Below, one piece after another: positions 11,711 to 63,757 of a stretch of 64,000 nt of DNA. The DNA comes from an uncultured bacterium (GTDB lineage: Bacteria; Patescibacteriota; Minisyncoccia; Phycocordibacterales; UBA6065). The stretch is taken from assembly GCA_963841935.1 (NCBI GenBank), contig CAWJEP010000005.1, forward strand, positions 164,003 through 228,002. Reading direction: 5' to 3'. A program made the translations under genes and the position numbers. The first letter of the stretch is position 1. Each line of letters starts with the position of its first letter. Below the pieces are notes generated by a model that ran no database searches, was not told where the DNA came from, and saw only the letters and a program-made list of their open reading frames with translations.

Positions 11711-12154
11711 ATGAAAGTAGCACTGCTAAAAGATGTTCCGGGTTTGGGCAAGAAAAATGACATAAAAGATGTCTCCGACGGCTACGCCCTAAACCTTCTC
11801 ATCCCGCGCCGCCTAGCGGAAGCGGCAACGACCGGTGTCATATCCCGCATCGAAATCGCCAAGAAATCGGAAGAGGCGGAGAAACTCATCAAAGAAGACT
11901 TGCTCGGCAAAAATCTCCACACGATAGACGGCAAGACTGTGGAAATAGAAGCCGAAGCGAACGAAAAAGGAAGTCTCTTTGCCGGTATTCACAAAGACGA
12001 GATAGTAAAAGCGGTCAAAGAAGAAATCGATGTCGACCTCCTCCCTGATTTCATCGTTCTCGACAAAGCCATAAAAGAAGTTGGCGAACACAAAATCGAA
12101 CTCAAAGTCCACGGCAAATCGGCGGCGTTTACGCTGAATATTGAGAAGAAGTAA
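11711..12154 (+). CDS. rplI: 50S ribosomal protein L9 (bL9)
   Basis: 'MKVALLKDVPGLGKKNDIKDVSDGYALNLLIP' matches bL9. Confidence 0.88.
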   Translation: MKVALLKDVPGLGKKNDIKDVSDGYALNLLIPRRLAEAATTGVISRIEIAKKSEEAEKLIKEDLLGKNLHTIDGKTVEIEAEANEKGSLFAGIHKDEIVKAVKEEIDVDLLPDFIVLDKAIKEVGEHKIELKVHGKSAAFTLNIEKK

Positions 12155-12165
12155 GTACTCTGTTT

Positions 12166-12846
12166 ATGAAATTAAACATCAAAAAACTCTTAGATTTTTT
12201 TGATGATAAAGAGGATTCTCAAAAAGGAGATGCAAATGCTTTTATGGCAATGTTTGGTGAGGATTTAAATGCTTCGGCATATGAACATTTTAGAAAAAAC
12301 AAGGTAACAATTCTTAATAGTTCAGTCCTCACCGGTACCGGTAAAGGTAAAATGCTGGATAGGTGGATATTAGACAATGGGAAATTATATCAATGTGAAA
12401 TTAAAAATTGGGCTGCAGGTGCCATTGGAGGTAAGAGGTTAAAATCTATTCCAAGCGATGATAAAAGAAAAGAGGTTGTTAAATATTATTGGGAACGCGA
12501 GTTAAAAGATAATTTCTCAAGTAAAACAAAACATCCGACCGGTGTTTCTAAGGTGTTACTTGAAATGAAACCACCAGGAGATTATAAAAAATTTAAAATC
12601 GAACCGTTACTTATATACTGGATGCCAATTTCTTCTGATAAAAAAGGACTAAACCCGTTGTCCGTCCTTTCTATAAAACCTCTGAAGTTAAAGATAGAAA
12701 CTAAATTTTCAAAAATTCATATCTTTTCCGTATCTCTATATCTTCGTCAGCTATACAAAAAAAGTAGGGGACAAAAAATCATCGACCTATATATGCCGCA
12801 CTTTGAACACAGAATGAAAATATTACGTGCCTTTCAAAAGAAATGA
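12166..12846 (+). CDS. Hypothetical protein, strongly AT-rich (likely horizontally acquired); possible PD-(D/E)xK-like motif 'WILD...CEIK'
   Basis: GC is about 25-33%, against about 50% in the flanking ribosomal genes. It is wedged between rplI and rpmA. No family recognised. Confidence 0.45.
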   Translation: MKLNIKKLLDFFDDKEDSQKGDANAFMAMFGEDLNASAYEHFRKNKVTILNSSVLTGTGKGKMLDRWILDNGKLYQCEIKNWAAGAIGGKRLKSIPSDDKRKEVVKYYWERELKDNFSSKTKHPTGVSKVLLEMKPPGDYKKFKIEPLLIYWMPISSDKKGLNPLSVLSIKPLKLKIETKFSKIHIFSVSLYLRQLYKKSRGQKIIDLYMPHFEHRMKILRAFQKK

Positions 12847-12861
12847 TGCAGAGCGGTTTTT

Positions 12862-13134
12862 TTATTTCACGCTGACGATGTTTTTTATTTTCGTCTTGTT
12901 GTTGAAACCGAGTTTGCGTTTCGTGGAGAAAGAAACGATGCCAGGCTTTGCGGCATAGATAGTAAAGTCGCGGCCGAGAGAAGTGTTTTTGCCCGCGAGA
13001 GTGTTGAGACCTTCTTGGCGGATGATGATAGAGCCGACTTTCGCCGTTTCACCAGCGTAAAGCTTCACGCCTAGGTAGCGTGGGTTGCTGTCTCGTCCGT
13101 TTTTGACTGTTCCGCCGGCTTTTTTAGTTGCCAT
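12862..13134 (-). CDS. rpmA: 50S ribosomal protein L27 (bL27)
   Basis: 'ATKKAGGTVKNGRDSNPRYLGVK' matches bL27. Confidence 0.88.
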   Translation of the reverse strand: MATKKAGGTVKNGRDSNPRYLGVKLYAGETAKVGSIIIRQEGLNTLAGKNTSLGRDFTIYAAKPGIVSFSTKRKLGFNNKTKIKNIVSVK

Positions 13135-13155: not shown

Positions 13156-13518
13156 ATGAGATTAACTGAAAGCTTGGAAAAAATCAAGTCTTTGGCGCTG
13201 TTACTCACCAGAAAGGACATTTATGTTGCTCTCATCATAATCCTCGTGGGAATTGCGTCTTTTTGCCTCGGAGCGTTGTGGCAAAAAGACGCGAGCCGTC
13301 CCGATATTACCATTCAAAACGCCGCTTCGGCCGATTTGGCGGCAGGCGAGGAGGGAAGCACTACCGACGCTTATGTCGGCTCTTATACGAGCAAAATCTA
13401 TCGTTTAAAGACCTGTCCGGGAGTCAGCGCGATAAACCCTCAAAACGAGGTCTTTTTCGCGACCAAAGACGACGCCGAGGCGGCCGGATATATAGCGGCC
13501 AAAAACTGCAAGATGTAA
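13156..13518 (+). CDS. Small membrane-anchored protein with a C-terminal Cys-containing motif (Y-R-L-K-T-C-P ... AGYIAAKNC)
   Basis: An N-terminal TM helix and a conserved-looking C-terminal module. The function cannot be assigned from sequence alone. Confidence 0.4.
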   Translation: MRLTESLEKIKSLALLLTRKDIYVALIIILVGIASFCLGALWQKDASRPDITIQNAASADLAAGEEGSTTDAYVGSYTSKIYRLKTCPGVSAINPQNEVFFATKDDAEAAGYIAAKNCKM

Positions 13519-27720: not shown

Positions 27721-28308
27721 TTAATTTTTATTAATCTTTTCCGGAATCACCATTTCTATTTCCGGCATAATGGCGCCGCTTTTCATGCGCCACCTCTCAT
27801 CCACGATTCGTTTGCCTGTATCTCTGAATCCAAGCCCTTCATAAAACTTCTTGGTTTTGGCATTGTATTCGATGAGTTTCACTATCGTCCCCTTTTTCGG
27901 GTCAAAAAATTTTCTGATTTCTAGCCACAACGCCGTGCCGACGCCTTTGCCCTGGTATTCGGGTAAGACATAGAGCATTTTCAATTCGTTTTTGTCTTCG
28001 TTTACTATTCCGGCGCAAACGCCAACAATCTTGTCGCCGATTTTTGCCGTAATCTGACGCTCGTTTTTCGGCAGATTTTTGATGCGCTCCTTTCTTTTTT
28101 TCTGATTTTCTTCCGTGTACGAATCTTTGTAACTTTCGTCCACATCCTCCGCTGTCACGCCGTGTTCCTTGTTCGGATATGTCGCGAGCCATGTCTCGTG
28201 AAGTAATCTCGTGGTTTGTAGCACGTCTTCGGAGACAGCGTCTGAAATAATAATTTTTTCCATATGATGCGGTTTTATTTTAATTCGCCATTTGGCTCCG
28301 TCCGACAT
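27721..28308 (-). CDS. GNAT-family N-acetyltransferase
   Basis: 'IVGVCAGIV...LYVLPEYQGKGVGTALW' is an acetyl-CoA binding motif. Confidence 0.8.
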   Translation of the reverse strand: MSDGAKWRIKIKPHHMEKIIISDAVSEDVLQTTRLLHETWLATYPNKEHGVTAEDVDESYKDSYTEENQKKRKERIKNLPKNERQITAKIGDKIVGVCAGIVNEDKNELKMLYVLPEYQGKGVGTALWLEIRKFFDPKKGTIVKLIEYNAKTKKFYEGLGFRDTGKRIVDERWRMKSGAIMPEIEMVIPEKINKN

Positions 28309-28346
28309 TTCCTCTGCAAACGAATAAGAATTTCATTTATGATATT

Positions 28347-28775
28347 TTACAAATCTTTATCTATAGAAAAATGTAGATATTTCCTAAAAAGCTCTTTAGC
28401 ATGATCATGCTGTTCACCAAACCATGATTCAATTTCATATAATTCTTGAGACAGCTCTTTGCGTTTACCAATTTCTAGATCCATGTCTTCAAGTTGCTCG
28501 CCTAAATGTATAGACCTCAAGCCTTTTTTATCAATTTCACTAACATAAGACTTGATCTCTCGACCAAATAAAAAATCTGAATCAGATGATTCAAAATAAA
28601 ATTTTCCGAGCTCCTTACGGTCTAACTTCCCGTTTTTTATAAAATACATAAACAATTCTTGGCAAGCTTTAAAAACTTCATGTCGACGCTCAAACAAATC
28701 AAGTCTTAATTGATCTTTTTGTATGTGTGCTGAGGACTTACTAATTTTATAATTCTGCCATGCTATGAAAGCCAA
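28347..28775 (-). CDS. Hypothetical protein, AT-rich
   Basis: An open frame in a low-GC island between the GNAT and dnaJ-like genes. No motif recognised. Confidence 0.35.
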   Translation of the reverse strand: MAFIAWQNYKISKSSAHIQKDQLRLDLFERRHEVFKACQELFMYFIKNGKLDRKELGKFYFESSDSDFLFGREIKSYVSEIDKKGLRSIHLGEQLEDMDLEIGKRKELSQELYEIESWFGEQHDHAKELFRKYLHFSIDKDL

Positions 28776-55259: not shown

Positions 55260-58200
55260 TTAACAATTCCAAATCACTCCGTTTATATCCATAATCGACG
55301 CGGCCGGCATTCCATTGACTGTTTTTATTGAAGTTTTATCGAGATTGTTTATTGTTTTTAGTTCCACGACGCAAACAGATGGGCTGACCGAAGGTGAGAT
55401 ACTCGGTGACGGGCTGACGCTTGGACTGGGAGAAACGCTCGGTGAAATTGACGGTGATGGACTGATTGATGGTGAAGCTGATGGACTTGGAGAAGTGCTC
55501 GGTGAGAGTGACGGTGAAAGTGACGACAAAGGTGACGGTGATATGGATGGCGATATCGATGGAGATTCGGATGGAGAGATAGATGGACTAAGAGACGGCG
55601 AAGGGCTGACGCTCGGTGACAAAGATGGGCTCGGACTGACAGATGGAGATACCGAGGGTGAAAGGCTTGGGCCGATGGACGGCGAAAGTGACGGCGAAAG
55701 TGATGGGCTGATACTCGGCGAGAGACTTGGCGAGAGAGACGGTGATGGAGAAACTGACGGGGAAACTGAAGGACTTAAACTTGGACTAAGAGATGGTGAG
55801 GGCGAAACCGAAGGAGAAATGCTCGGAGAAAGCGATGGTGAAAGTGATGGGCTCGGACTAACTGAAGGTGAAATGCTCGGCGAGAGAGACGGGCTGAGTG
55901 ACGGCGACAAACTCGGCGAAAGTGAAGGACTTGGAGATACGGACGGCGAAACGGACGGAGAAATACTCGGCGAGAGAGATGAACCAGCTGAAGGAGAAAC
56001 CGAGGGAGAGATACTTGGCGAAAGTGACGGACTTGGGGAAACGGACGGCGAAACCGAAGGTGAAATGCTTGGCGAGAGTGATGGGCTTGGCGAAACCGAC
56101 GGCGAAATACTCGGTGAAAGTGAAGGAGAAAGTGACGGAGACAAACTCGGCGAGAGAGACGGCGATGGAGAAACTGACGGACTAACTGAAGGACTTAAAG
56201 ATGGCGAGAGCGAGGGACTTGGTGAAGTCGAAGGTGAAACGCTTGGGCTAAGCGAAGGTGAAAGAGACGGCGAGAGACTCGGCGATAGACTTGGGCTCGG
56301 TGAAACTGAGGGTGAAACCGACGGAGAAATACTTGGCGAGAGTGAAGGGCTTGGACTAACCGATGGTGAAATACTTGGTGAAAGAGATGGAGACAAACTT
56401 GGCGAGAGACTCGGCGAAATGCTCGGGCTCGGTGAGACCGAAGGGCTGACTGATGGTGAGATGCTCGGTGAGAGTGATGGCGAAGGTGAAACCGATGGTG
56501 AGATCGATGGTGAGAGAGATGGACTAAGTGATGGAGAAAGTGATGGCGATATCGAAGGGCTTGGACTGACTGATGGTGAGACCGAAGGACTCAAACTCGG
56601 TGACAGAGACGGTGATGGCGAAACCGACGGCGAAATACTCGGTGAAAGTGAAGGAGAAAGTGACGGAGACAAACTTGGCGAGAGAGACGGCGATGGAGAA
56701 ACTGACGGACTAACTGAAGGACTTAAAGATGGCGAGAGCGAGGGACTTGGTGAAGTCGAAGGTGAAACGCTTGGGCTAAGCGAAGGTGAAAGAGACGGCG
56801 AGAGACTCGGCGATAGACTTGGGCTCGGTGAAACTGAGGGTGAAACCGACGGAGAAATACTTGGCGAGAGTGAAGGGCTTGGACTAACCGATGGTGAAAT
56901 ACTTGGTGAAAGAGATGGAGACAAACTTGGCGAGAGACTCGGCGAAATGCTCGGGCTCGGTGAGACCGAAGGGCTGACTGATGGTGAGATGCTCGGTGAG
57001 AGTGATGGCGAAGGTGAAACCGATGGTGAGATCGATGGTGAGAGAGATGGACTAAGTGATGGAGAAAGTGATGGCGATATCGAAGGGCTTGGACTGACTG
57101 ATGGTGAGACCGAAGGACTCAAACTCGGTGACAGAGACGGTGATGGCGAAACCGACGGCGAAATACTCGGTGAAAGTGAAGGAGAAAGTGACGGAGACAA
57201 ACTTGGCGAGAGAGACGGCGATGGAGAAACTGACGGACTAACTGAAGGACTTAAAGATGGCGAGAGCGAGGGACTTGGTGAAGTCGAAGGTGAAACGCTT
57301 GGGCTAAGCGAAGGTGAAAGAGACGGCGAGAGACTCGGCGATAGACTTGGGCTCGGTGAAACTGAGGGTGAAACCGACGGAGAAATACTTGGCGAGAGTG
57401 AAGGGCTTGGACTAACCGATGGTGAAATACTTGGTGAAAGAGATGGAGACAAACTTGGCGAGAGACTCGGCGAAATGCTCGGGCTCGGTGAGACCGAAGG
57501 GCTGACTGATGGTGAGATGCTCGGTGAGAGTGATGGCGAAGGTGAAACCGATGGTGAGATCGATGGTGAGAGAGATGGACTAAGTGATGGAGAAAGTGAT
57601 GGCGATATCGAAGGGCTTGGACTGACTGATGGTGAGACCGAAGGACTCAAACTCGGTGACAGAGACGGTGATGGCGAAACCGACGGCGAAATACTCGGTG
57701 AAAGTGAAGGAGAAAGTGACGGAGACAAACTTGGCGAGAGAGACGGCGATGGAGAAACTGACGGACTAACTGAAGGACTTAAAGATGGCGAGAGCGAGGG
57801 ACTTGGTGAAGTCGAAGGTGAAACGCTTGGGCTAAGCGAAGGTGAAAGAGACGGCGAGAGACTCGGCGATAGACTTGGGCTCGGTGAAACTGAGGGTGAA
57901 ACCGACGGAGAAATACTTGGCGAGAGTGAAGGGCTTGGACTAACCGATGGTGAAATACTTGGTGAAAGAGATGGAGACAAACTTGGCGAGAGACTCGGCG
58001 AAATGCTCGGGCTCGGTGAGACCGAAGGGCTGACTGATGGTGAGATGCTCGGTGAGAGTGATGGCGAAGGTGAAACCGATGGTGAGATCGATGGTGAGAG
58101 AGATGGACTAAGTGATGGAGAAAGTGATGGCGATATCGAAGGGCTTGGACTGACTGATGGTGAGACCGAAGGACTCAAACTCGGTGACAGAGACGGTGAT

Positions 58201-60012
58201 GGCGAAACCGACGGCGAAATACTCGGTGAAAGTGAAGGAGAAAGTGACGGAGACAAACTTGGCGAGAGAGACGGCGATGGAGAAACTGACGGACTAACTG
58301 AAGGACTTAAAGATGGCGAGAGCGAGGGACTTGGTGAAGTCGAAGGTGAAACGCTTGGGCTAAGCGAAGGTGAAAGAGACGGCGAGAGACTCGGCGAAAT
58401 GCTCGGGCTCGGTGAGACCGAAGGGCTGACTGATGGTGAGATGCTCGGTGAGAGTGATGGCGAAGGTGAAACCGATGGTGAGATCGATGGTGAGAGAGAT
58501 GGACTAAGTGATGGAGAAAGTGATGGCGATATCGAAGGGCTTGGACTGACTGATGGTGAGACCGAAGGACTCAAACTCGGTGACAGAGACGGTGATGGCG
58601 AAACCGACGGCGAAATACTCGGTGAAAGTGAAGGAGAAAGTGACGGAGACAAACTCGGCGAGAGAGACGGCGATGGAGAAACTGACGGACTAACTGAAGG
58701 ACTTAAAGATGGCGAGAGACTCGGCGATAGACTTGGGCTCGGTGAAACTGACGGACTGACTGAAGGACTTAAAGATGGCGAGAGCGAGGGACTTGGTGAA
58801 GTCGAAGGTGAAATGCTCGGCGAGAGAGAGGGCTGAAAGTGACGGCGAGAGACTCGGCGATAGACTTGGGCTCGGTGAAACTGAGGGTGAAACCGACGGA
58901 GAAATACTTGGCGAGAGTGAAGGGCTTGGACTAACCGATGGTGAAATACTTGGTGAAAGAGATGGAGACAAACTTGGCGAGAGACTCGGCGAAATGCTCG
59001 GGCTCGGTGAGACCGAAGGGCTGACTGATGGTGAGATGCTCGGTGAGAGTGATGGCGAAGGTGAAACCGATGGTGAGATCGATGGTGAGAGAGATGGACT
59101 AAGTGATGGAGAAAGTGATGGCGATATCGAAGGGCTTGGACTGACTGATGGTGAGACCGAAGGACTCAAACTCGGTGACAGAGACGGTGATGGCGAAACC
59201 GACGGCGAAATACTCGGTGAAAGTGAAGGAGAAAGTGACGGAGACAAACTCGGTGAAAGACTCGGCGAAAGACTTGGACTTGGAGATACGGAGGGTGAAA
59301 TGGACGGAGAAAGAGATGGAGAAATACTCGGACTAAGCGATGGACTAAGTGACGAAATAAACCATGTGATTTGAATGACTCCGTTTCCTCCCTGTCCTCC
59401 TGTGTTACCGTTTCTTCCCGACCCTCCACCACCGCCTCCATAGTTTGCTCCGTTAGCGCCAGTTGCGTTTACTCCTCCAGCTCCTCCGTTTCCGGCTGGA
59501 GTTCCCCCATTTGCTCCACCAGCGTGAGTTCCCGACCCATTCGCTCCGGTTCCTCCGTTTCCAGTGTTCCCGGCTCCTCCACCTCCTCCACCTCCGTTGT
59601 TGCTACCTCCGTTTCCTCCGTTTCCTCCGTTGTGTGACGTCCAAGTGACGACTCCGTTACCGGTTGTGTTGCTATTACCCCCGACTCCACGTGCGCCACC
59701 GGCGTTGCCTCCACCACCTCCACCGGCCGCCTCGATGATAAGAGTGTTGCCCGCAGTATTGAAAAATGTGGTTCCGCCAGCGCCGCCGGATGCGTTTGCG
59801 GTTCGTGTTCCGCCGTTTCCGGCGGAATAATTAAAAGCGATGTTCGGACCAGATATGGTTATAGTTGTCTGAGCCCAAGCGCCACCACCACCACCACTAC
59901 CGTTGTTGCCTCCACCACCTCCACCTCCACCTCCAATAACCTGAACAACCGCGGAAGTTGCTGTGGTGCTATTCCATGTACCGCTACCTGTAAGATTTGA
60001 TGTTGTCGCCAT
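55260..60012 (-). CDS. Giant (about 1580 aa) protein: Gly/Asn-rich N-terminal domain followed by more than 1100 aa of (S-P-S-L/I/V)n low-complexity repeat. Interrupted by one frameshift at about 58836-58850.
   Basis: ORF 58690-60012 starts with a non-repetitive Gly-rich domain and runs in frame into SPSx repeats. ORF 55260-58652 continues the same repeat. The repeat consensus gains +1 nt at about 58845. All neighbours are minus-strand. The plus-strand alternative (acidic GExxGE repeat, ORF 55315-58836) cannot be excluded. Confidence 0.55.
55400..59340. repeat. Tandem-repeat DNA: 12-nt (4-codon) units organised into 528-bp higher-order repeats (at least 4 near-identical copies at 56101-58212, plus partial copies)
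   Basis: 'accgaaggactcaaactcggtgacagagacggtgatggcgaaaccgacggcgaaatactc' recurs at 56581, 57109, 57637, 58165 (period 528) and again at 58561 (period 396). Confidence 0.9.
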
Positions 60013-60042: not shown

Positions 60043-61236
60043 CTACCGACTATCAAATGCTTTCCTTGTTTTATCTATAGACCATATATTTCCCGCTTCA
60101 TTTTCGCTGTATATATCAAATTCGAAAAGCGCGTCTTTGACACTCTGTCTATCAAAGTCATGTCCGCAAAGAATTTTTTTACACTTCGGATACCACGCGT
60201 TTAGGTCTCTTAAGACGGACTCTTTGTCATGAGCGCCGTCGATAAAGACCATGTCTATGGAGTTATCTTCAAAATGCTTCGCCGCCTCGGCGCTATCCAT
60301 TTTTAATATTTCGACGTTTTTGAAACCCGACATATTCCGTCTCAAATCCGATTCGGCGTCGGGATTAAATTTTGATTTCTGAGAGAAATTATCTACAAGT
60401 GTCACTTTCCCGGGACATCCGCTGGCGATGGCGTGACCGCTTTTTCCTTTCCAGCTTCCAATTTCAACGACCGATTTCATTTTTTTGGCCGTGAGATAAA
60501 GCCAGGTCATTTCCGACAAGAGCAAATACCCTTCTATTTTGGGGTCTTTATAATCGCTGATTTCCCAATTAGCCAAAGTTTTTATCATTCCTTTAACTTT
60601 TTGCTTGGTAGGTATTACATATTCATGCCACAGGTAGTTTCCTCCGGCGTTTATTTCCTGGGTCAGTTGTGTGACGGTTTTGAATTTCAACCCGTATTTG
60701 GCTATGTTTCTTGAAAGAGTGTAATCGTCAATGAGATGTTCCCGCGTAACAACTGTGTTTAACTCTTTCTGAATGGGAAAAATATTTCCAAGCGCCTCTT
60801 CGTAGGGAATATCAAGAGGGTGCCAGAGGTCAAGGCACCAATCCGAGGCAATGGTGAACCAGTTGCAAGAACCGATATTCCTGCCGTCACGGATGAAATA
60901 TTTGTCATAACGCGAACGGTTATTGGCCATGTCACAACCGTTATGAACCACGGTGTCTTTCTTGATAAAATTCGTCACATCAAAAAAATCCGGGTGAACC
61001 AGAGCGTCCGAGTCGATATAAATATTCCAATCGTTGCCCATTTTTTTGCCGAGCTCGTAAATTTGCAATTTTTCGTAAACCGGCGGCATATTTGGAAATT
61101 TGCGCTCGGAAATTATGTGGAAATCCGCTCCGATTTTCTCCGCGTAGCGTTTTATCAAGGGATAAGTAAGCTCTGTTATTTCCGGAGCGTAATTATCGAC
61201 GTTCAAAGTGAAAATTGTTTTTTTAAGTTTTGACAT
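60043..61236 (-). CDS. Putative GT-A-fold glycosyltransferase (DxD) fused to a C-terminal class-I SAM-dependent O-methyltransferase domain
   Basis: N-terminal half is paralogous to the next two genes ('KKTIFTLNVDNY...YEKLQIYELG...IDSD'). C-terminal 'VVEIGSWKGKSG...IDMVFIDGAHDKESV' is an O-MTase (Methyltransf_24-like) motif. Confidence 0.5.
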   Translation of the reverse strand: MSKLKKTIFTLNVDNYAPEITELTYPLIKRYAEKIGADFHIISERKFPNMPPVYEKLQIYELGKKMGNDWNIYIDSDALVHPDFFDVTNFIKKDTVVHNGCDMANNRSRYDKYFIRDGRNIGSCNWFTIASDWCLDLWHPLDIPYEEALGNIFPIQKELNTVVTREHLIDDYTLSRNIAKYGLKFKTVTQLTQEINAGGNYLWHEYVIPTKQKVKGMIKTLANWEISDYKDPKIEGYLLLSEMTWLYLTAKKMKSVVEIGSWKGKSGHAIASGCPGKVTLVDNFSQKSKFNPDAESDLRRNMSGFKNVEILKMDSAEAAKHFEDNSIDMVFIDGAHDKESVLRDLNAWYPKCKKILCGHDFDRQSVKDALFEFDIYSENEAGNIWSIDKTRKAFDSR

Positions 61237-61237
61237 T

Positions 61238-61969
61238 TTATTTTATATAATTCCAATTTTTTAATTTCTCCCTGATTTTCTCGGCTCTGTCTTTTTCTTG
61301 AACCGAAAAATCATAATAAAAATATTCATCTCCGCCCCTTCCTATTTCATTGAGAAGGTTCACGAAAGTTTTGAATTTTATGCCGTATTTGGCGATATTT
61401 CTGCTTACAACGTAATCATCAATGCCTTGCTCATTGGTGTGTCCGGTCATTTCTTCACGGTGAATGATATTAATATTTTTGAGCGCTTCGGGAGCTGTCA
61501 TATCGTCAAGCGGTTTCCAAATCTCATGACATAGTGATGAAGCGACTGTTAGAAATGATGTGCTGTTTATATTTCTGCCGTCTCGTCTAAAGAAATTGTC
61601 GTAACTGAAACGGTTACCCGCGAAATCAACGCCGAAATTTAAAACCGTATCTTCTGGAAGAACTTCAGTTATGTCAAAAAGGTCCGGATGAACCAAGCAG
61701 TTCGGGTCGATGTAATAGTTCCAGTCATTATCCTTTCCAAGTTCGTAAATCTGAAGTTTTTCGTACATTACGGGGTAATTCGGAAACTTGCGTTCATTGA
61801 TTATCTTCAAATCCGCGCCAATTTTGTCTGCGAATCTTTTAAGAAAAGGTAAGGTAAGTTTCACTACTTCGATATCATAATTGTCAAAACCCAGCGTGAA
61901 AATGGTTCTCTTTAATTTTTTTTGTGGTTGGTCGGAGTACATATATAAATTATTAATTAATAACCCCAA
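61238..61969 (-). CDS. Putative GT-A-fold glycosyltransferase, paralog 2 of the tandem triplet
   Basis: 'KRTIFTLGFDNYDIEVVKLTLPFLKRFADKIGADLKIINERKFP...YEKLQIYELGK...YYIDPN' is paralogous to 60043-61236 and 61957-62649. Confidence 0.5.
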   Translation of the reverse strand: MGLLINNLYMYSDQPQKKLKRTIFTLGFDNYDIEVVKLTLPFLKRFADKIGADLKIINERKFPNYPVMYEKLQIYELGKDNDWNYYIDPNCLVHPDLFDITEVLPEDTVLNFGVDFAGNRFSYDNFFRRDGRNINSTSFLTVASSLCHEIWKPLDDMTAPEALKNINIIHREEMTGHTNEQGIDDYVVSRNIAKYGIKFKTFVNLLNEIGRGGDEYFYYDFSVQEKDRAEKIREKLKNWNYIK

Positions 61970-62649
61970 GAACTAATGCGTTCCTTTATTTCTTTGATTT
62001 TTTTTTCTTTGGGGATACCGAACTGGTGGTATATAAGCCCATAATCCTGTAAGCCCCTCTCGACGAAGACATCCCTTAGGGCCTTATATTTTAGGCCGTA
62101 TTTGGCGATATTTCTGGAAATAAGATAATCATCAATAAGATAATCGGGTGTGTAACCTATTAATTCTTCGTTGTGCCAAGGGTGGAAACGGCTGAATATT
62201 TCTTTCTTGGTCAGATCGGTAATCGGCTCCCACATTTCGCGACACAGATTTGAAGCGAACATCATACAACTTCCCATAGACACGTGTCTTCCGGCTCGCA
62301 AAAAATAATTGTCGAGCTCGTAGTGTCCCTCCAGAGGATTTACTCCCCATGTTGAAACAGTGTCGTTTGAAATAACCTCGGTGATGTCAAAAAGTTTGGG
62401 GTTAATCAAAACATCGCAATCAAAAAAAAGTCCCCAATCAATATCTTTACTCAGTTCGTAGATTTGAAATTTTTCGTAAATAACGGGATATTCCGGAAAT
62501 TTTCTTTTGTTAATTTCCACGAACTCGGCGCCGATTTTGTCGGCATACATTTTCATATATGGATAAGTAAGCTTGGTTATATCGTCAGCGTAACCATCAA
62601 TATTGAGGGTAAAAATCGTTTTCTTGATTTTTCTAGGTATGTCATTCAT
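61957..62649 (-). CDS. Putative GT-A-fold glycosyltransferase, paralog 3 of the tandem triplet
   Basis: 'KKTIFTLNIDGYADDITKLTYPYMKMYADKIGAEFVEINKRKFP...YEKFQIYELSK...FFDCD'. Start is the ATG at 62649. Confidence 0.5.
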   Translation of the reverse strand: MNDIPRKIKKTIFTLNIDGYADDITKLTYPYMKMYADKIGAEFVEINKRKFPEYPVIYEKFQIYELSKDIDWGLFFDCDVLINPKLFDITEVISNDTVSTWGVNPLEGHYELDNYFLRAGRHVSMGSCMMFASNLCREMWEPITDLTKKEIFSRFHPWHNEELIGYTPDYLIDDYLISRNIAKYGLKYKALRDVFVERGLQDYGLIYHQFGIPKEKKIKEIKERISSWGY

Positions 62650-62791
62650 ATTATTTCTTAATAATTTCCCATTAATTCCCCCGTTCACATAAAGAAAAGG
62701 CAAGTTTATTTTAGTAAACCCGTGAACATATTGTAGCATTTTTAAAATCGGACCTTACATTACGGCATCGCCTTCACTCAGACTCTGGATT

Positions 62792-63757
62792 TCATTTGAT
62801 TTTCTTGATTTTATCCAAATCTTCCTGTTTCCAACCATTTACCGGCCAGAACTTTTCCAAGAGCCAGGACATGGGATAGATTTGTTTCGGCCAATTATTA
62901 TCAAAAAATAAATTCCAGACTTTCTTTTTTGTCTTTTGAACTTCGCTCTCGTGTTGCGGATATGGGAACCCGAAATCCCCGCCTTGTGTCCTGAACATAT
63001 GGGCATACCAAGTTTTATGATTGACGAGTACCCTGCCACCGGAGAGCCATGTCTTTACGGCCACTTCTATTCCCTGATTGCCCCAGTTGCCGAGTTTCTC
63101 GTCGCAGATATTGAGCTCCCAGTATTTTTCGCGAGTCAGCATAAAGCATGAACCTTGGAGCGACAGCGTTTCGGTTAAACCCGTTTCTTCCAAATCTTTT
63201 TTATATCCCGGTCTTTTGGTGTAGTCGTTGAAATATTGAAAATGCGGTTCGGCGTCGAAACTGTACGAATTGCTTTGAGGCCTTTCCTTGCCGACCCATA
63301 TCATTTTTCTCCTCATGTGTTTTTCGTCTCCGCATTGTTCGCATTTCTTCGGTGTCGGACCTTGATACTTTTTCCAACCGCACTTGTAGCATTTCCAATC
63401 AAAGGCCCAGAGATTTCGCATGGTCGGCACCATGGTCACGTTGTCCCCGACTTTCTTGAAAGCTTCTATCATTTTGCGGTCAAAACCTTTGTCAAAAGCG
63501 CAGTGAGCGTCGACTTTCATCACGTATTTGGCCTTTGAAAGTTTGCAGGCGAGATTGGCCGTGGCTCTTTGACCAATGGATTCCGGGACATATATGACGT
63601 TTACCCTCTCGTTTTGGAGCACGGGCGGGTCGGCCCACTTCCCATCCAAGACGACTATGACCTCCGTATCGGCTTCTATGTTGGCCAAAATGTCCTCTAT
63701 GGTCCTTTGGAGGAACATTTCATTTCTGGCGGGTATAAGTATGGATAATTCTTTCAT
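62792..63757 (-). CDS. Family-2 glycosyltransferase with an inserted CxxC...CxxC zinc-ribbon
   Basis: 'LSILIPARNE...VVLDGKWAD...DAHCAF' is a GT2 signature. 'CYKCGWKKYQGPTPKKCEQCGDE' is an insertion. Confidence 0.7.
   Translation of the reverse strand: MKELSILIPARNEMFLQRTIEDILANIEADTEVIVVLDGKWADPPVLQNERVNVIYVPESIGQRATANLACKLSKAKYVMKVDAHCAFDKGFDRKMIEAFKKVGDNVTMVPTMRNLWAFDWKCYKCGWKKYQGPTPKKCEQCGDEKHMRRKMIWVGKERPQSNSYSFDAEPHFQYFNDYTKRPGYKKDLEETGLTETLSLQGSCFMLTREKYWELNICDEKLGNWGNQGIEVAVKTWLSGGRVLVNHKTWYAHMFRTQGGDFGFPYPQHESEVQKTKKKVWNLFFDNNWPKQIYPMSWLLEKFWPVNGWKQEDLDKIKKIK

What the first reader, a model, noticed from the sequence alone, without database searches (positions are those of the whole stretch)
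12166..12846. AT-rich foreign-looking ORF inserted between rplI and rpmA
GC drops to about 25-33% for about 680 bp, against about 50% for the flanking ribosomal genes. The 226-aa product has no recognisable family, but it contains a candidate PD-(D/E)xK-like arrangement (RWILD…9 aa…CEIK). A compositional island splitting ribosomal-protein neighbours suggests recent horizontal acquisition, for example a nuclease, toxin or defence gene.
Basis: partly seen in the sequence, partly recalled or inferred. Interest (0 to 1): 0.5.

Follow-up and report, generated by a model that had tools for sequence, protein, structure and literature searches.

The report
Foreign stand-alone nuclease gene after rplI
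An AT-rich gene wedged between two ribosomal-protein genes of a tiny "candidate phyla" bacterium is a horizontally acquired member of an uncharacterised nuclease family that elsewhere travels as an integron gene cassette, so it is probably a self-contained DNA-defence enzyme.

Summary
ORF 12166-12846 (226 aa) has GC 0.327 against 0.481 for the window, and GC3 0.28 against 0.58 for neighbouring genes. The CysS-CorA-S41-RplI> <RpmA block is conserved in relatives, but 0 of 73 related loci carry this gene. DNA homology to the closest relatives breaks at 12135 and 12862, so it is a lineage-specific insertion. The junction holds different cargo in other relatives or is empty.

The family is patchy across phyla, usually AT-richer than its host, and has no constant partner or methylase. 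In Chloroflexota and Ignavibacteriales genomes it is an integron cassette with its own attC.

Best reading: a mobile, methylase-independent defence or restriction-type endonuclease, read through from rplI. Function is inferred, not shown. It is a new family of a known kind; interest is moderate.

The parts
12166..12846 (+). Coding sequence (with stop) of a 226-aa stand-alone PD-(D/E)XK-fold protein, the putative nuclease
12136..12861 (.). Window-specific segment (the insertion). DNA homology to the nearest relatives stops at 12135 (L062, L063) or 12153-12154 (L151, L152) and resumes at 12857-12862.
   Evidence: blastn of L062/L063/L151/L152/L155 against the window. GC of the segment is 0.329.
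12259..12405 (+). Codons of the putative active site: E32 (12259-12261), D65 (12358-12360), Q76 (12391-12393), E78 (12397-12399), K80 (12403-12405)
   Evidence: E32, D65 and E78 are invariant and Q76 and K80 are at least 90% conserved in 70 members down to 27% identity. They fall on helix 22-42, the start of strand 66-70, and strand 73-80 of the model.
11711..12154 (+). rplI (ribosomal protein L9), immediately upstream and the probable source of transcription for the ORF
   Evidence: Pfam L9_N and L9_C on the identical protein P0270. Conserved synteny.
12155..12165 (+). 11-nt spacer between the rplI stop and the ORF start, with no hairpin or terminator and no promoter-like site
   Evidence: Sequence, scan. 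The cargo genes in L151 and L152 likewise start 6 and 5 nt after rplI.
12847..12861 (.). 15-nt spacer to the rpmA stop codon (tgcagagcggttttt). It may be a remnant of the G+C-rich hairpin plus T-run that every relative keeps next to rpmA.
   Evidence: Junction comparison. No terminator-like site found here.
12862..13134 (-). rpmA (ribosomal protein L27), convergent downstream neighbour
   Evidence: 96% identical to the L062 product. Pfam Ribosomal_L27 on the orthologues in L152 and L155.

Best explanation
The ORF is an intact, horizontally acquired accessory gene. It encodes a stand-alone, probably Mg2+-dependent, endonuclease with a PD-(D/E)XK fold. It belongs to a previously uncurated family of about 540 clusters at 50% identity.

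It was inserted into a variable slot directly after rplI in a Paceibacterota (CPR) genome. There it replaces the shared terminator spacer between the convergent rplI and rpmA genes. It has no promoter, terminator or flanking repeats of its own, so it is most likely transcribed by read-through from rplI.

The family moves between genomes and phyla as a single gene. One branch moves as a bona fide integron cassette (ORF plus attC).

Its most likely role is a self-contained, methylase-independent DNA-restriction or defence endonuclease, type IV-like or otherwise self-sparing. E32, D65 and E78 would coordinate the metal, and K80 would complete the active site.

Shown: the composition anomaly, the insertion, the family, conservation of the motif, the mobility and the cassette status of some members. 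Inferred: the fold (from a predicted structure), the nuclease activity, the read-through expression and the defence role.
For: Insertion:
- CysS-CorA-S41-RplI> <RpmA-orf120-orf159 synteny is conserved in relatives with RplI 41-92% identical.
- 0 of 73 loci have the gene. 27 of 42 junctions are 210 bp or shorter.
- The homology breakpoints coincide with the ORF ends.
- The nearest relatives carry other cargo at the same junction or none. L151: a trypsin-like, AT-rich gene. L152: NUDIX, ASCH and a 153-aa gene. L062: a homologue of that 153-aa gene. L155: empty.

Composition:
- GC 0.327 against 0.481, and GC3 0.28 against 0.58.
- Family-wide, the gene's GC is below its flanks in 55 of 60 loci, median -0.073, p = 1.6e-10.

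Fold and active site:
- AF2 pLDDT 88.7, pTM 0.88, with alpha-beta-beta-beta-alpha-beta order.
- E32, D65 and E78 are invariant and K80 is at least 90% conserved across 70 members.

Stand-alone architecture:
- Nearly all of the best 150 representatives are 215-260 aa and cover the whole profile.
- No neighbour recurs.
- Only 3 of 110 immediate neighbours are DNA methylases.
- No methylase was detectable in the 64-kb window.

Mobility:
- A 69%-identical copy sits in a non-CPR contig among complex-I-type genes.
- Serine recombinases lie within about 6 kb in 5 of the 60 genome loci, plus L140/L141 where one is directly upstream.
- There are two 99.8%-identical copies in an attC array in Chloroflexota CFX11.
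- The same ORF-plus-attC unit, about 80-85% identical in DNA, occurs in Ignavibacteriales and Chloroflexia genomes with unrelated flanks.

Defence flavour:
- Mrr, HindIII REase, PIN, DarT, PemK, Fic, a type IIG methylase and an SMC-like ATPase occur nearby in a minority of loci.
- Integron cassettes of unknown function often encode phage defence (bioRxiv 10.1101/2024.07.02.601719).
- Restriction endonucleases are enriched among cassettes (PMC10661359).
Against: - No sequence-level link to any characterised nuclease. Pfam, NCBIfam, PADLOC, PHROGs and PDB profiles are all negative.
- The fold rests on a predicted model.
- No domain that reads modified bases is recognisable, as a type IV enzyme would normally have.
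- Most neighbours are housekeeping genes, so the defence-island signal is modest.
- No homologue was found in the phage, plasmid or IMG/VR collections.
- The window copy has no attC, integrase or repeats, so its mode of insertion is unknown.
- An unregulated nuclease co-transcribed with a ribosomal-protein gene should be dangerous unless it spares the cell's own DNA. That is assumed here, not shown.
Confidence: 0.55

Rival explanations
1. It is the endonuclease of a classical type II restriction-modification system. Its cognate methyltransferase lies elsewhere in the genome, outside the 64-kb window.
For: - An N6/N4 DNA methylase is directly adjacent in L058 (same strand) and L031 (divergent), and within 6 kb in L014, L049 and L060.
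- A Dam-type methylase in L135 and a type IIG-like methylase in L136 lie within 3 kb.
- A 67-aa Xre-type HTH gene ends 4 bp upstream in the P0016 lineage, resembling an R-M controller protein.
- The size (226 aa) and single-domain build are typical of type II REases.
Against: - Only 3 of 110 immediate neighbours are DNA methylases.
- The nearby methylases are only 22-28% identical to one another, so they are not a co-evolving partner.
- No methylase is detectable in the window.
- The integron cassettes carry the nuclease alone. An REase transferred without its methylase would kill the recipient.
Confidence: 0.13
2. It is a toxin or abortive-infection effector: a nuclease acting on host DNA or tRNA/rRNA, kept in check by low expression or an unrecognised inhibitor.
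For: - The PD-(D/E)XK fold also includes RNase toxins such as CdiA-CT, which appear among the weak hits.
- An Xre-type HTH directly upstream in one lineage could be an antitoxin.
- PemK, PIN, Fic and DarT genes occur in some neighbourhoods.
- Toxin-antitoxin cassettes are common in integrons (PMC10661359).
- Strongly AT-biased codons could throttle translation.
Against: - There is no adjacent small ORF in the window. The spacers are 11 and 15 nt.
- An HTH neighbour occurs in only two contexts among 78 nuclease-bearing loci: the P0016 lineage (directly upstream) and L135 (529 bp downstream, opposite strand).
- The cassette form is a single ORF.
Confidence: 0.12
3. It is a native housekeeping repair or recombination nuclease (resolvase-, NucS- or RecB-like). 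Its low GC merely reflects its amino-acid composition.
For: - Some loci place it next to UvrD-PDDEXK helicase-nucleases or a 250-aa PDDEXK_1 protein.
- NucS, Hjc and RecU appear among the weak structural hits.
- In CPR genomes it is often tightly packed into operons.
Against: - It is absent from all 73 syntenic relatives.
- GC3, not just GC1 and GC2, is aberrant.
- The distribution is patchy: about 540 clusters among 1.84 billion representatives.
- Contexts are variable.
- Some members are integron cassettes.
Confidence: 0.06
4. It is a free-standing homing endonuclease that cleaves the empty rplI/rpmA junction and copies itself in by recombinational repair.
For: - The gene is inserted precisely between two highly conserved genes with almost no non-coding DNA.
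- It is a solitary nuclease with AT-rich composition.
- PD-(D/E)XK homing endonucleases exist (my own knowledge).
Against: - No other genome has it at this site.
- The closest homologues (67-74% identical) all sit in different contexts.
- The same slot holds unrelated non-nuclease cargo in relatives.
Confidence: 0.05
5. It is a catalytically inactive PD-(D/E)XK-like DNA-binding or regulatory protein.
For: - Inactive restriction-endonuclease-like domains are known; Pfam's NA-iREase1 family appeared for a neighbouring protein.
- There is no biochemical evidence of activity.
Against: The E, D and ExK residues are the most conserved positions across 70 members down to 27% identity. That pattern argues for retained catalysis.
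Confidence: 0.05

Closest known systems
PD-(D/E)XK nuclease superfamily, specifically the catalytic domains of stand-alone or type IV/IIS restriction and defence nucleases (MspJI/AspBHI, McrC, Mrr, Upx, Shedu SduA, Lamassu LmuA)
   Same: - Predicted alpha-beta-beta-beta-alpha-beta core.
- Glu on the first helix, Asp at the start of strand 2, and E-x-K on strand 3.
- An accessory, horizontally mobile gene.
- No cognate methylase, as with type IV enzymes.
   Different: - It is a single 226-aa domain with its own N-terminal LDFFDD and C-terminal FSxSxYLR motifs.
- It has no SRA, EVE or Mrr_N-type reader domain.
- It has no ATPase or GTPase partner, which McrC, LmuA and others require.
Integron gene cassettes that encode phage-defence functions (BRiCs; bioRxiv 10.1101/2024.07.02.601719)
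   Same: - Family members in CFX11, an Ignavibacteriales genome and a Chloroflexia genome are promoterless single-ORF cassettes.
- They are bounded by G/TT and an attC with R''/R' boxes, a bulged stem and compensatory changes.
- Close homologues also exist outside integrons, as that paper reports for BRiCs.
   Different: - The window copy has no attC and no room for one, since only 15 nt separate it from rpmA. The attC model finds nothing in the window or in any CPR locus.
- No defence phenotype has been tested.
- The cassette branch is only 34-37% identical to the window protein.
Orphan or solitary type II restriction endonucleases
   Same: Size, single-domain build, PD-(D/E)XK motif, AT-rich composition relative to the host, and occasional adjacency to N6/N4 methylases.
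   Different: A methylase is absent from the great majority of loci and from the cassette form.
Chromosomal hotspots of horizontal gene transfer flanked by core genes
   Same: The same intergenic junction between two core genes holds different accessory genes in closely related genomes.
   Different: - The slot is tiny, holding one to three genes.
- It lies inside a CPR genome, directly behind a ribosomal-protein gene.
- Cargo starts 5-11 nt after the rplI stop.
- No integrase, tRNA or repeats mark it.

Membership tests
PD-(D/E)XK nuclease superfamily | Core alpha-beta-beta-beta-alpha-beta fold | tested here: met
   [not shown]
PD-(D/E)XK nuclease superfamily | Conserved acidic and lysine residues, D...(D/E)xK, at the start of strand 2 and on strand 3, often with a Glu on helix 1 | tested here: met
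   E32, D65 and E78 are invariant and K80 is at least 90% conserved across 70 members down to 27% identity. Their positions match the model's elements.
PD-(D/E)XK nuclease superfamily | Significant sequence or profile match to a curated member family | tested here: not met
   No Pfam, NCBIfam, PADLOC or PHROG hit for the window protein or for 70 members. No PDB sequence hit with the profiles A1 and A4.
PD-(D/E)XK nuclease superfamily | Divalent-metal-dependent phosphodiester cleavage | not testable with these tools
   Requires biochemistry.
Type II restriction-modification system | Cognate DNA methyltransferase encoded adjacent to the endonuclease | tested here: not met
   There is none next to the ORF and none is detectable in the 64-kb window. 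Only 3 of 110 immediate neighbours across 60 loci are methylases. The nearby methylases are 22-28% identical to one another.
Type IV (modification-dependent) restriction enzyme | Nuclease that functions without a methylase | tested here: met
   The stand-alone architecture is seen throughout the family.
Type IV (modification-dependent) restriction enzyme | Domain that recognises modified bases (SRA, EVE/YTH, Mrr_N and the like), and cleavage that depends on modification | tested here: inconclusive
   No such domain was detected by Pfam or by structure search. The C-terminal ~75 residues and the 81-97 insert have no assigned role. Dependence on modification cannot be tested here.
Integron gene cassette | ORF followed by an attC site (R''/L''...L'/R' imperfect hairpin) and bounded by G/TT | tested here: not met
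   Not met for the window copy: model R1 finds nothing, and only 15 nt separate the stop from rpmA. Met for family members L033, L034 and L048 (97.9-124 bits) and weakly for L043 (22 bits), supported by structure and covariation.
Integron gene cassette | Integron integrase (IntI) associated with the array | not tested
   Only 10 ORFs of L033 were scanned, and none is a tyrosine recombinase. The arrays may be attC clusters without an integrase, or the integrase may lie beyond the 10-kb flanks.
Type II toxin-antitoxin system | Adjacent small antitoxin gene | tested here: not met
   There is no small ORF in the 11-nt and 15-nt spacers. An Xre-type HTH neighbour occurs only in the P0016 lineage and, at a distance, in L135, among 78 loci.
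Free-standing homing endonuclease | Same insertion site among related copies, with empty sites in relatives as targets | tested here: not met
   Empty sites exist, but no other copy occupies this site. The closest homologues sit in unrelated contexts.
Catalogued anti-phage defence systems (PADLOC-DB 2.0) | Match to a model of a known or candidate defence protein | tested here: not met
   0 families at E up to 10.

The most novel reading that the evidence does not exclude
The 3' end of rplI in this Paceibacterota clade may act as a dedicated gene-capture and expression slot. In this reading, promoterless foreign genes are repeatedly swapped in a few nucleotides after the rplI stop and expressed from the ribosomal-protein promoter, with no integrase, attC or repeats. 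It would be a functional analogue of an integron in CPR bacteria. The nuclease would be one such cargo, and it would itself be a new single-protein, methylase-independent anti-phage restriction system that also circulates as a true integron cassette in other phyla.
Probability: 0.2. Interest if true: 0.65.

Novelty: new member of a known kind. Interest (0 to 1): 0.45.

Why it matters
If the protein is an active, self-sufficient restriction or defence nuclease, it adds a compact (226 aa) single-gene system to the defence repertoire. It would be found in CPR/Patescibacteria, organisms with few recognised defences, and it would define a family that currently has no model in Pfam, NCBIfam or PADLOC.

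Some members are integron cassettes shared between Chloroflexota and Ignavibacteriales. That gives a concrete route for its spread, and it links environmental integron cassettes of unknown function to a testable activity.

The variable slot behind rplI gives a clean natural experiment for how gene flux occurs in streamlined CPR genomes. There is an empty site, four different cargos, and exact breakpoints.

Tried and rejected
- Curated family searches (Pfam, PADLOC, PHROGs, NCBIfam) on the window protein and on 70 family members: nothing.
- PDB sequence profiles A1 and A4: nothing.
- Foldseek against PDB and BFVD: no hit below E = 1e-3.
- The afdb50 library was not available.
- IMG/VR, phage and plasmid collections: no homologue.
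- Conserved partner gene: none after clustering all ORFs within ±6 kb in 60 loci. The bulk Pfam scan of first and second neighbours was mostly housekeeping genes.
- Domain fusions: none informative among the best 150 representatives.
- Xre-type HTH partner: restricted to one lineage.
- Flanking direct or inverted repeats, own promoter or terminator: none credible.
- attC in the window or CPR loci: none with model R1.
- My generic AAC...GTT hairpin screen did not separate real sites from controls and was discarded.
- Cognate methylase in the window: none.
- Source organism name: the cluster look-up gave no names. The lineage was inferred from RplI relatives.

Full report
**1. The observation**

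ORF 12166-12846 (+) is real. It is 226 aa, starts with ATG, and has the same N-terminus (MKLNIK...LDFFDD) as all its homologues.

- Its GC is 0.327 against 0.481 for the whole window. That is z = -3.7 relative to all 681-bp windows and tied for the lowest value.
- The flanking genes rplI and rpmA are 0.473 and 0.487.
- The drop is not a side effect of a lysine-rich protein. GC at codon positions 1/2/3 is 0.40/0.30/0.28, against means of 0.52/0.39/0.58 for nine neighbouring genes. The GC3 z-score is -6.8 and the ORF is the lowest of all.
- Tetranucleotide distance is only moderately extreme (rank 41 of 634 windows). The top ranks go to a repeat-protein region at 55-59 kb.
Only six residues lie between D70 and C77. 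The conserved Asp is D65, because D70 varies among homologues.

**2. It is an insertion**

I searched JGI metagenomes with the window's RplI and recovered 73 related loci. I then mapped eleven window proteins onto them by tblastn.

- The block CysS-CorA-S41 peptidase-RplI> <RpmA-orf120 (Ada Zn-binding)-orf159 is conserved in relatives whose RplI is 41-92% identical.
- None of the 73 loci encodes the ORF.
- 42 loci contain both rplI and rpmA. In 27 of them the gap is 210 bp or less, and in 23 it is 136 bp or less.
- The empty spacers examined (L065, L068, L072, L155) contain a G+C-rich hairpin followed by a T-run, which looks like a shared terminator for the two convergent genes.
- At the DNA level, 73-85% homology between the window and its nearest relatives stops at 12135-12154 and resumes at 12857-12862. 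The window-specific segment is the ORF plus 11 nt upstream and 15 nt downstream.
- The hairpin that every relative keeps beside rpmA is gone in the window.
- There are no flanking direct or inverted repeats and no promoter- or terminator-like sites of its own. Read-through from rplI is therefore the simplest way for it to be expressed; this is an inference.

**3. The junction is a variable slot**

Closer relatives found through a second RplI search carry other cargo at the same place.

| Locus | RplI identity | Content between rplI and rpmA |
|---|---|---|
| Window | - | the nuclease, GC 0.33 |
| L151 | 88% | unrelated AT-rich gene (GC 0.366 vs 0.511) starting 6 nt after rplI; weak, below-cutoff trypsin-like match |
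| L152 | 83% | a NUDIX gene, an ASCH gene and a 153-aa gene, starting 5 nt after rplI |
| L062 | 81% | only a homologue (52% identical) of that 153-aa gene |
| L155 | 71% | essentially empty |

More distant relatives hold a DUF6915 gene, small unknown ORFs or pyrG. The host lineage is Paceibacterota/Parcubacteria; the nearest named RplI relatives are 'Ca. Paceibacterota' at 63% and Taylorbacteria at 56-58%.

**4. The protein**

- No curated library recognises it or any of 70 relatives: Pfam, PADLOC, PHROGs, NCBIfam and PDB sequence profiles are all negative.
- It does have at least 200 homologues in the 5.8-billion-protein set.
- A filter-free HMM search of 1.84 billion representatives finds 543 clusters, 430 of them at E ≤ 1e-10. 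Nearly all of the best 150 are 215-260 aa and cover the whole profile. The architecture is uniformly stand-alone, with no informative fusions.
- AlphaFold2 with a 36-sequence alignment gives a confident model: pLDDT 88.7, pTM 0.88, with helix 22-42, strands 48-50, 66-70 and 73-80, helix 98-114 and strand 144-151.
- Foldseek against PDB and BFVD gives no significant hit, and its weak hits are of the same class.
- Upx is a dual PD-(D/E)XK anti-phage protein (PMC13099982).
- Across 70 members down to 27% identity, E32, L64, D65, E78, K129, W152, F187, S188, S190 and R194 are invariant. D13, G31, W67, Q76, K80, W82, G89 and R216 are at least 90% conserved.
- E32 lies on the first helix, D65 at the start of strand 2, and E78-x-K80 on strand 3, which is the canonical arrangement.

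I therefore assign the fold with fair confidence and infer retained catalysis. Activity itself is untested.

**5. Distribution and context**

One scan of species-representative genomes returned 60 loci.

- Close relatives (57-69% identical) occur in several CPR classes and also in an 'Elusimicrobia' contig among antiporter/complex-I-type genes.
- Distant relatives (30-40%) occur in Dehalococcoidia and other Chloroflexota, Bacteroidota, Ignavibacteriales, Latescibacteria, Burkholderiales and Pelagibacteraceae.
- The gene's GC is below its flanks in 55 of 60 loci, with a median difference of -0.073 and Wilcoxon p = 1.6e-10.
- GC3 is lower in 79% of loci and is the lowest of all neighbours in 43%.
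- Clustering all ORFs within ±6 kb shows no conserved partner.
- First and second neighbours are mostly housekeeping genes. A minority are nuclease, restriction, toxin or recombinase genes: PDDEXK_1, NYN, N6/N4 and C5 methylases, Mrr, HindIII REase, PIN, DarT, a Schlafen-like helicase and large serine recombinases.
- Individual contexts include PemK, Fic/RhuM, a type IIG-like methylase, and an SMC-like ATPase with a DUF559-like gene.
- Methylases are directly adjacent only in L031 and L058. The nearby methylases are 22-28% identical to one another.
- No methylase is detectable in the window.
- The closest homologues (67-69%) sit in unrelated contexts. One follows an Xre-type HTH gene by 4 bp, one lies between rplU and murE, and one is near ileS. 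The HTH neighbour is confined to that lineage.
- No homologue appears in IMG/VR, phage or plasmid collections.

**6. How the family moves**

Two copies in one Chloroflexota genome (CFX11; L033 and L034) lie on an 842-bp segment that is 99.8% identical between the loci. The segment is bounded by copies of a ~135-nt repeat that recurs about a dozen times per 20 kb between single, co-oriented ORFs. Copies of a 1.8-kb IS110-family element are interspersed.

- The repeat starts with RYYYAAC and ends with GTTRRRY, and has a long bulged stem.
- On 15 copies, 93.6% of cells pair, against 33-40% when the partners are slid.
- 10 pairs change on both sides, and 0 of 500 shuffles reach the observed values.
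- This is the architecture of an integron attC site (that comparison rests on my own knowledge of attC sites).
- A covariance model of the repeat, searched over 72 sources, found further sites only immediately 3' of the nuclease ORF. One is in an Ignavibacteriales genome (L048, 97.9 bits) and one, weakly, in a Chloroflexia genome (L043, 22 bits, E ≈ 0.011). It found nothing in the window or the CPR loci.
- The three cassettes align at about 80-85% DNA identity from GTTGGGC, the G/TT crossover, through the ORF into the attC. Their flanks are unrelated.

At least one branch of the family is therefore a mobile integron cassette shared across phyla. Published work shows that integron cassettes of unknown function often encode phage defence and have close homologues outside integrons (bioRxiv 10.1101/2024.07.02.601719). 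Restriction endonucleases and toxin-antitoxin genes are enriched among cassettes (PMC10661359).

**7. Interpretation**

The best-supported reading is a horizontally acquired, stand-alone PD-(D/E)XK endonuclease that works without a methylase. It is most plausibly a restriction- or defence-type enzyme, inserted in a variable slot behind rplI and expressed by read-through.

- Shown: the composition anomaly, the insertion, the family, motif conservation, and the mobility and cassette status of some members.
- Inferred: the fold (from a predicted model), nuclease activity, expression and the defence role.
- Rivals: an orphan type II enzyme with an unlinked methylase, a toxin or abortive-infection effector, a housekeeping repair nuclease, a homing endonuclease, and an inactive DNA-binding protein. 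These are weighed in the structured fields. The housekeeping and homing readings are largely contradicted by the data.

**8. Novelty and score**

This is a new, uncurated family within a very well-known superfamily, behaving as accessory nucleases usually do. I file it as a new member of a known kind, with moderate interest (0.45). The features that lift it above routine are:

- the complete absence of curated models;
- the clean empty-site and alternative-cargo series in a CPR genome;
- the demonstration that relatives are integron cassettes crossing phylum boundaries.

Noticed in passing
window 12155-12165 and 12847-12861; L151, L152, L062, L155, L065-L073: The rplI> <rpmA junction of this Paceibacterota clade is a recurrently variable slot. 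It is empty in most relatives but holds different unrelated cargo in others: a trypsin-like gene; NUDIX, ASCH and a 153-aa gene; DUF6915; pyrG. In three genomes the cargo starts 5-11 nt after the rplI stop.
   Followed up: yes
window 12847-12861: The G+C-rich hairpin plus T-run that every relative keeps beside the rpmA stop, a likely bidirectional terminator, is missing in the window. Convergent rplI-ORF and rpmA transcripts may therefore overlap.
   Followed up: partly
L033 1-20645 and L034 1-20645 (Chloroflexota CFX11, JABFGC010000002.1): There are two attC cassette arrays about 520 kb apart. Each has a dozen or more attC-like sites in 20 kb (26 model hits across the two loci), mostly unknown single-ORF cassettes, and three copies each of a 1.8-kb IS110-family element that begins at attC-like sequence.
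   Followed up: yes
L142-L145 (for example L143 59-965): In one CPR lineage, seen on 21 contigs, a 67-aa Xre/HTH_3 gene ends 4 bp before the nuclease start. Three small unknown ORFs (45, 205 and 218 aa) follow. This could be a controller-protein or antitoxin arrangement.
   Followed up: partly
L135 1100-5062: In a Campbellbacteria genome the nuclease is preceded by a 920-aa SMC/ABC-like ATPase and followed 4 bp later by a 124-aa DUF559/REase_MTES_1575-like gene. A Dam-type methylase, an HTH gene and PemK lie nearby, which looks like a defence island.
   Followed up: no
window 27721-28775: A second low-GC island (minimum 0.327) holds a GNAT acetyltransferase (195 aa) and a 142-aa ORF with no family. 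It may be another acquired segment.
   Followed up: partly
window 60043-62739: A third low-GC region (about 0.36) holds three paralogous genes of 397, 243 and 260 aa that share an N-terminal module. The one scanned has no Pfam hit. A further 321-aa ORF follows at 62792-63757; it was not scanned.
   Followed up: no
window 55260-60012 (- strand): A 1130-aa ORF consists almost entirely of SPS(L/I/V)SPS repeats. It is followed by a 440-aa Gly-rich protein with the same repeats. An antisense 1173-aa ORF is probably an artefact of the repeat. This region dominates the tetranucleotide outliers.
   Followed up: no
window 13156-13518: A 120-aa membrane-anchored protein with an Ada Zn-binding domain is conserved next to rpmA across the whole clade.
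   Followed up: no
L152 4393-4854 and L062 4346-4873: A 153/175-aa protein family with no Pfam hit (52% identical between the two) sits beside rpmA in two close relatives but is absent from the window. The nuclease may have replaced it.
   Followed up: no
L002, about 45 nt after the nuclease stop: A 124-nt long imperfect hairpin (TACAAACAAACG...GTATTGTTTGTC) follows the nuclease gene in a Yanofskybacteria genome. The attC model does not recognise it, and its significance is unknown.
   Followed up: no
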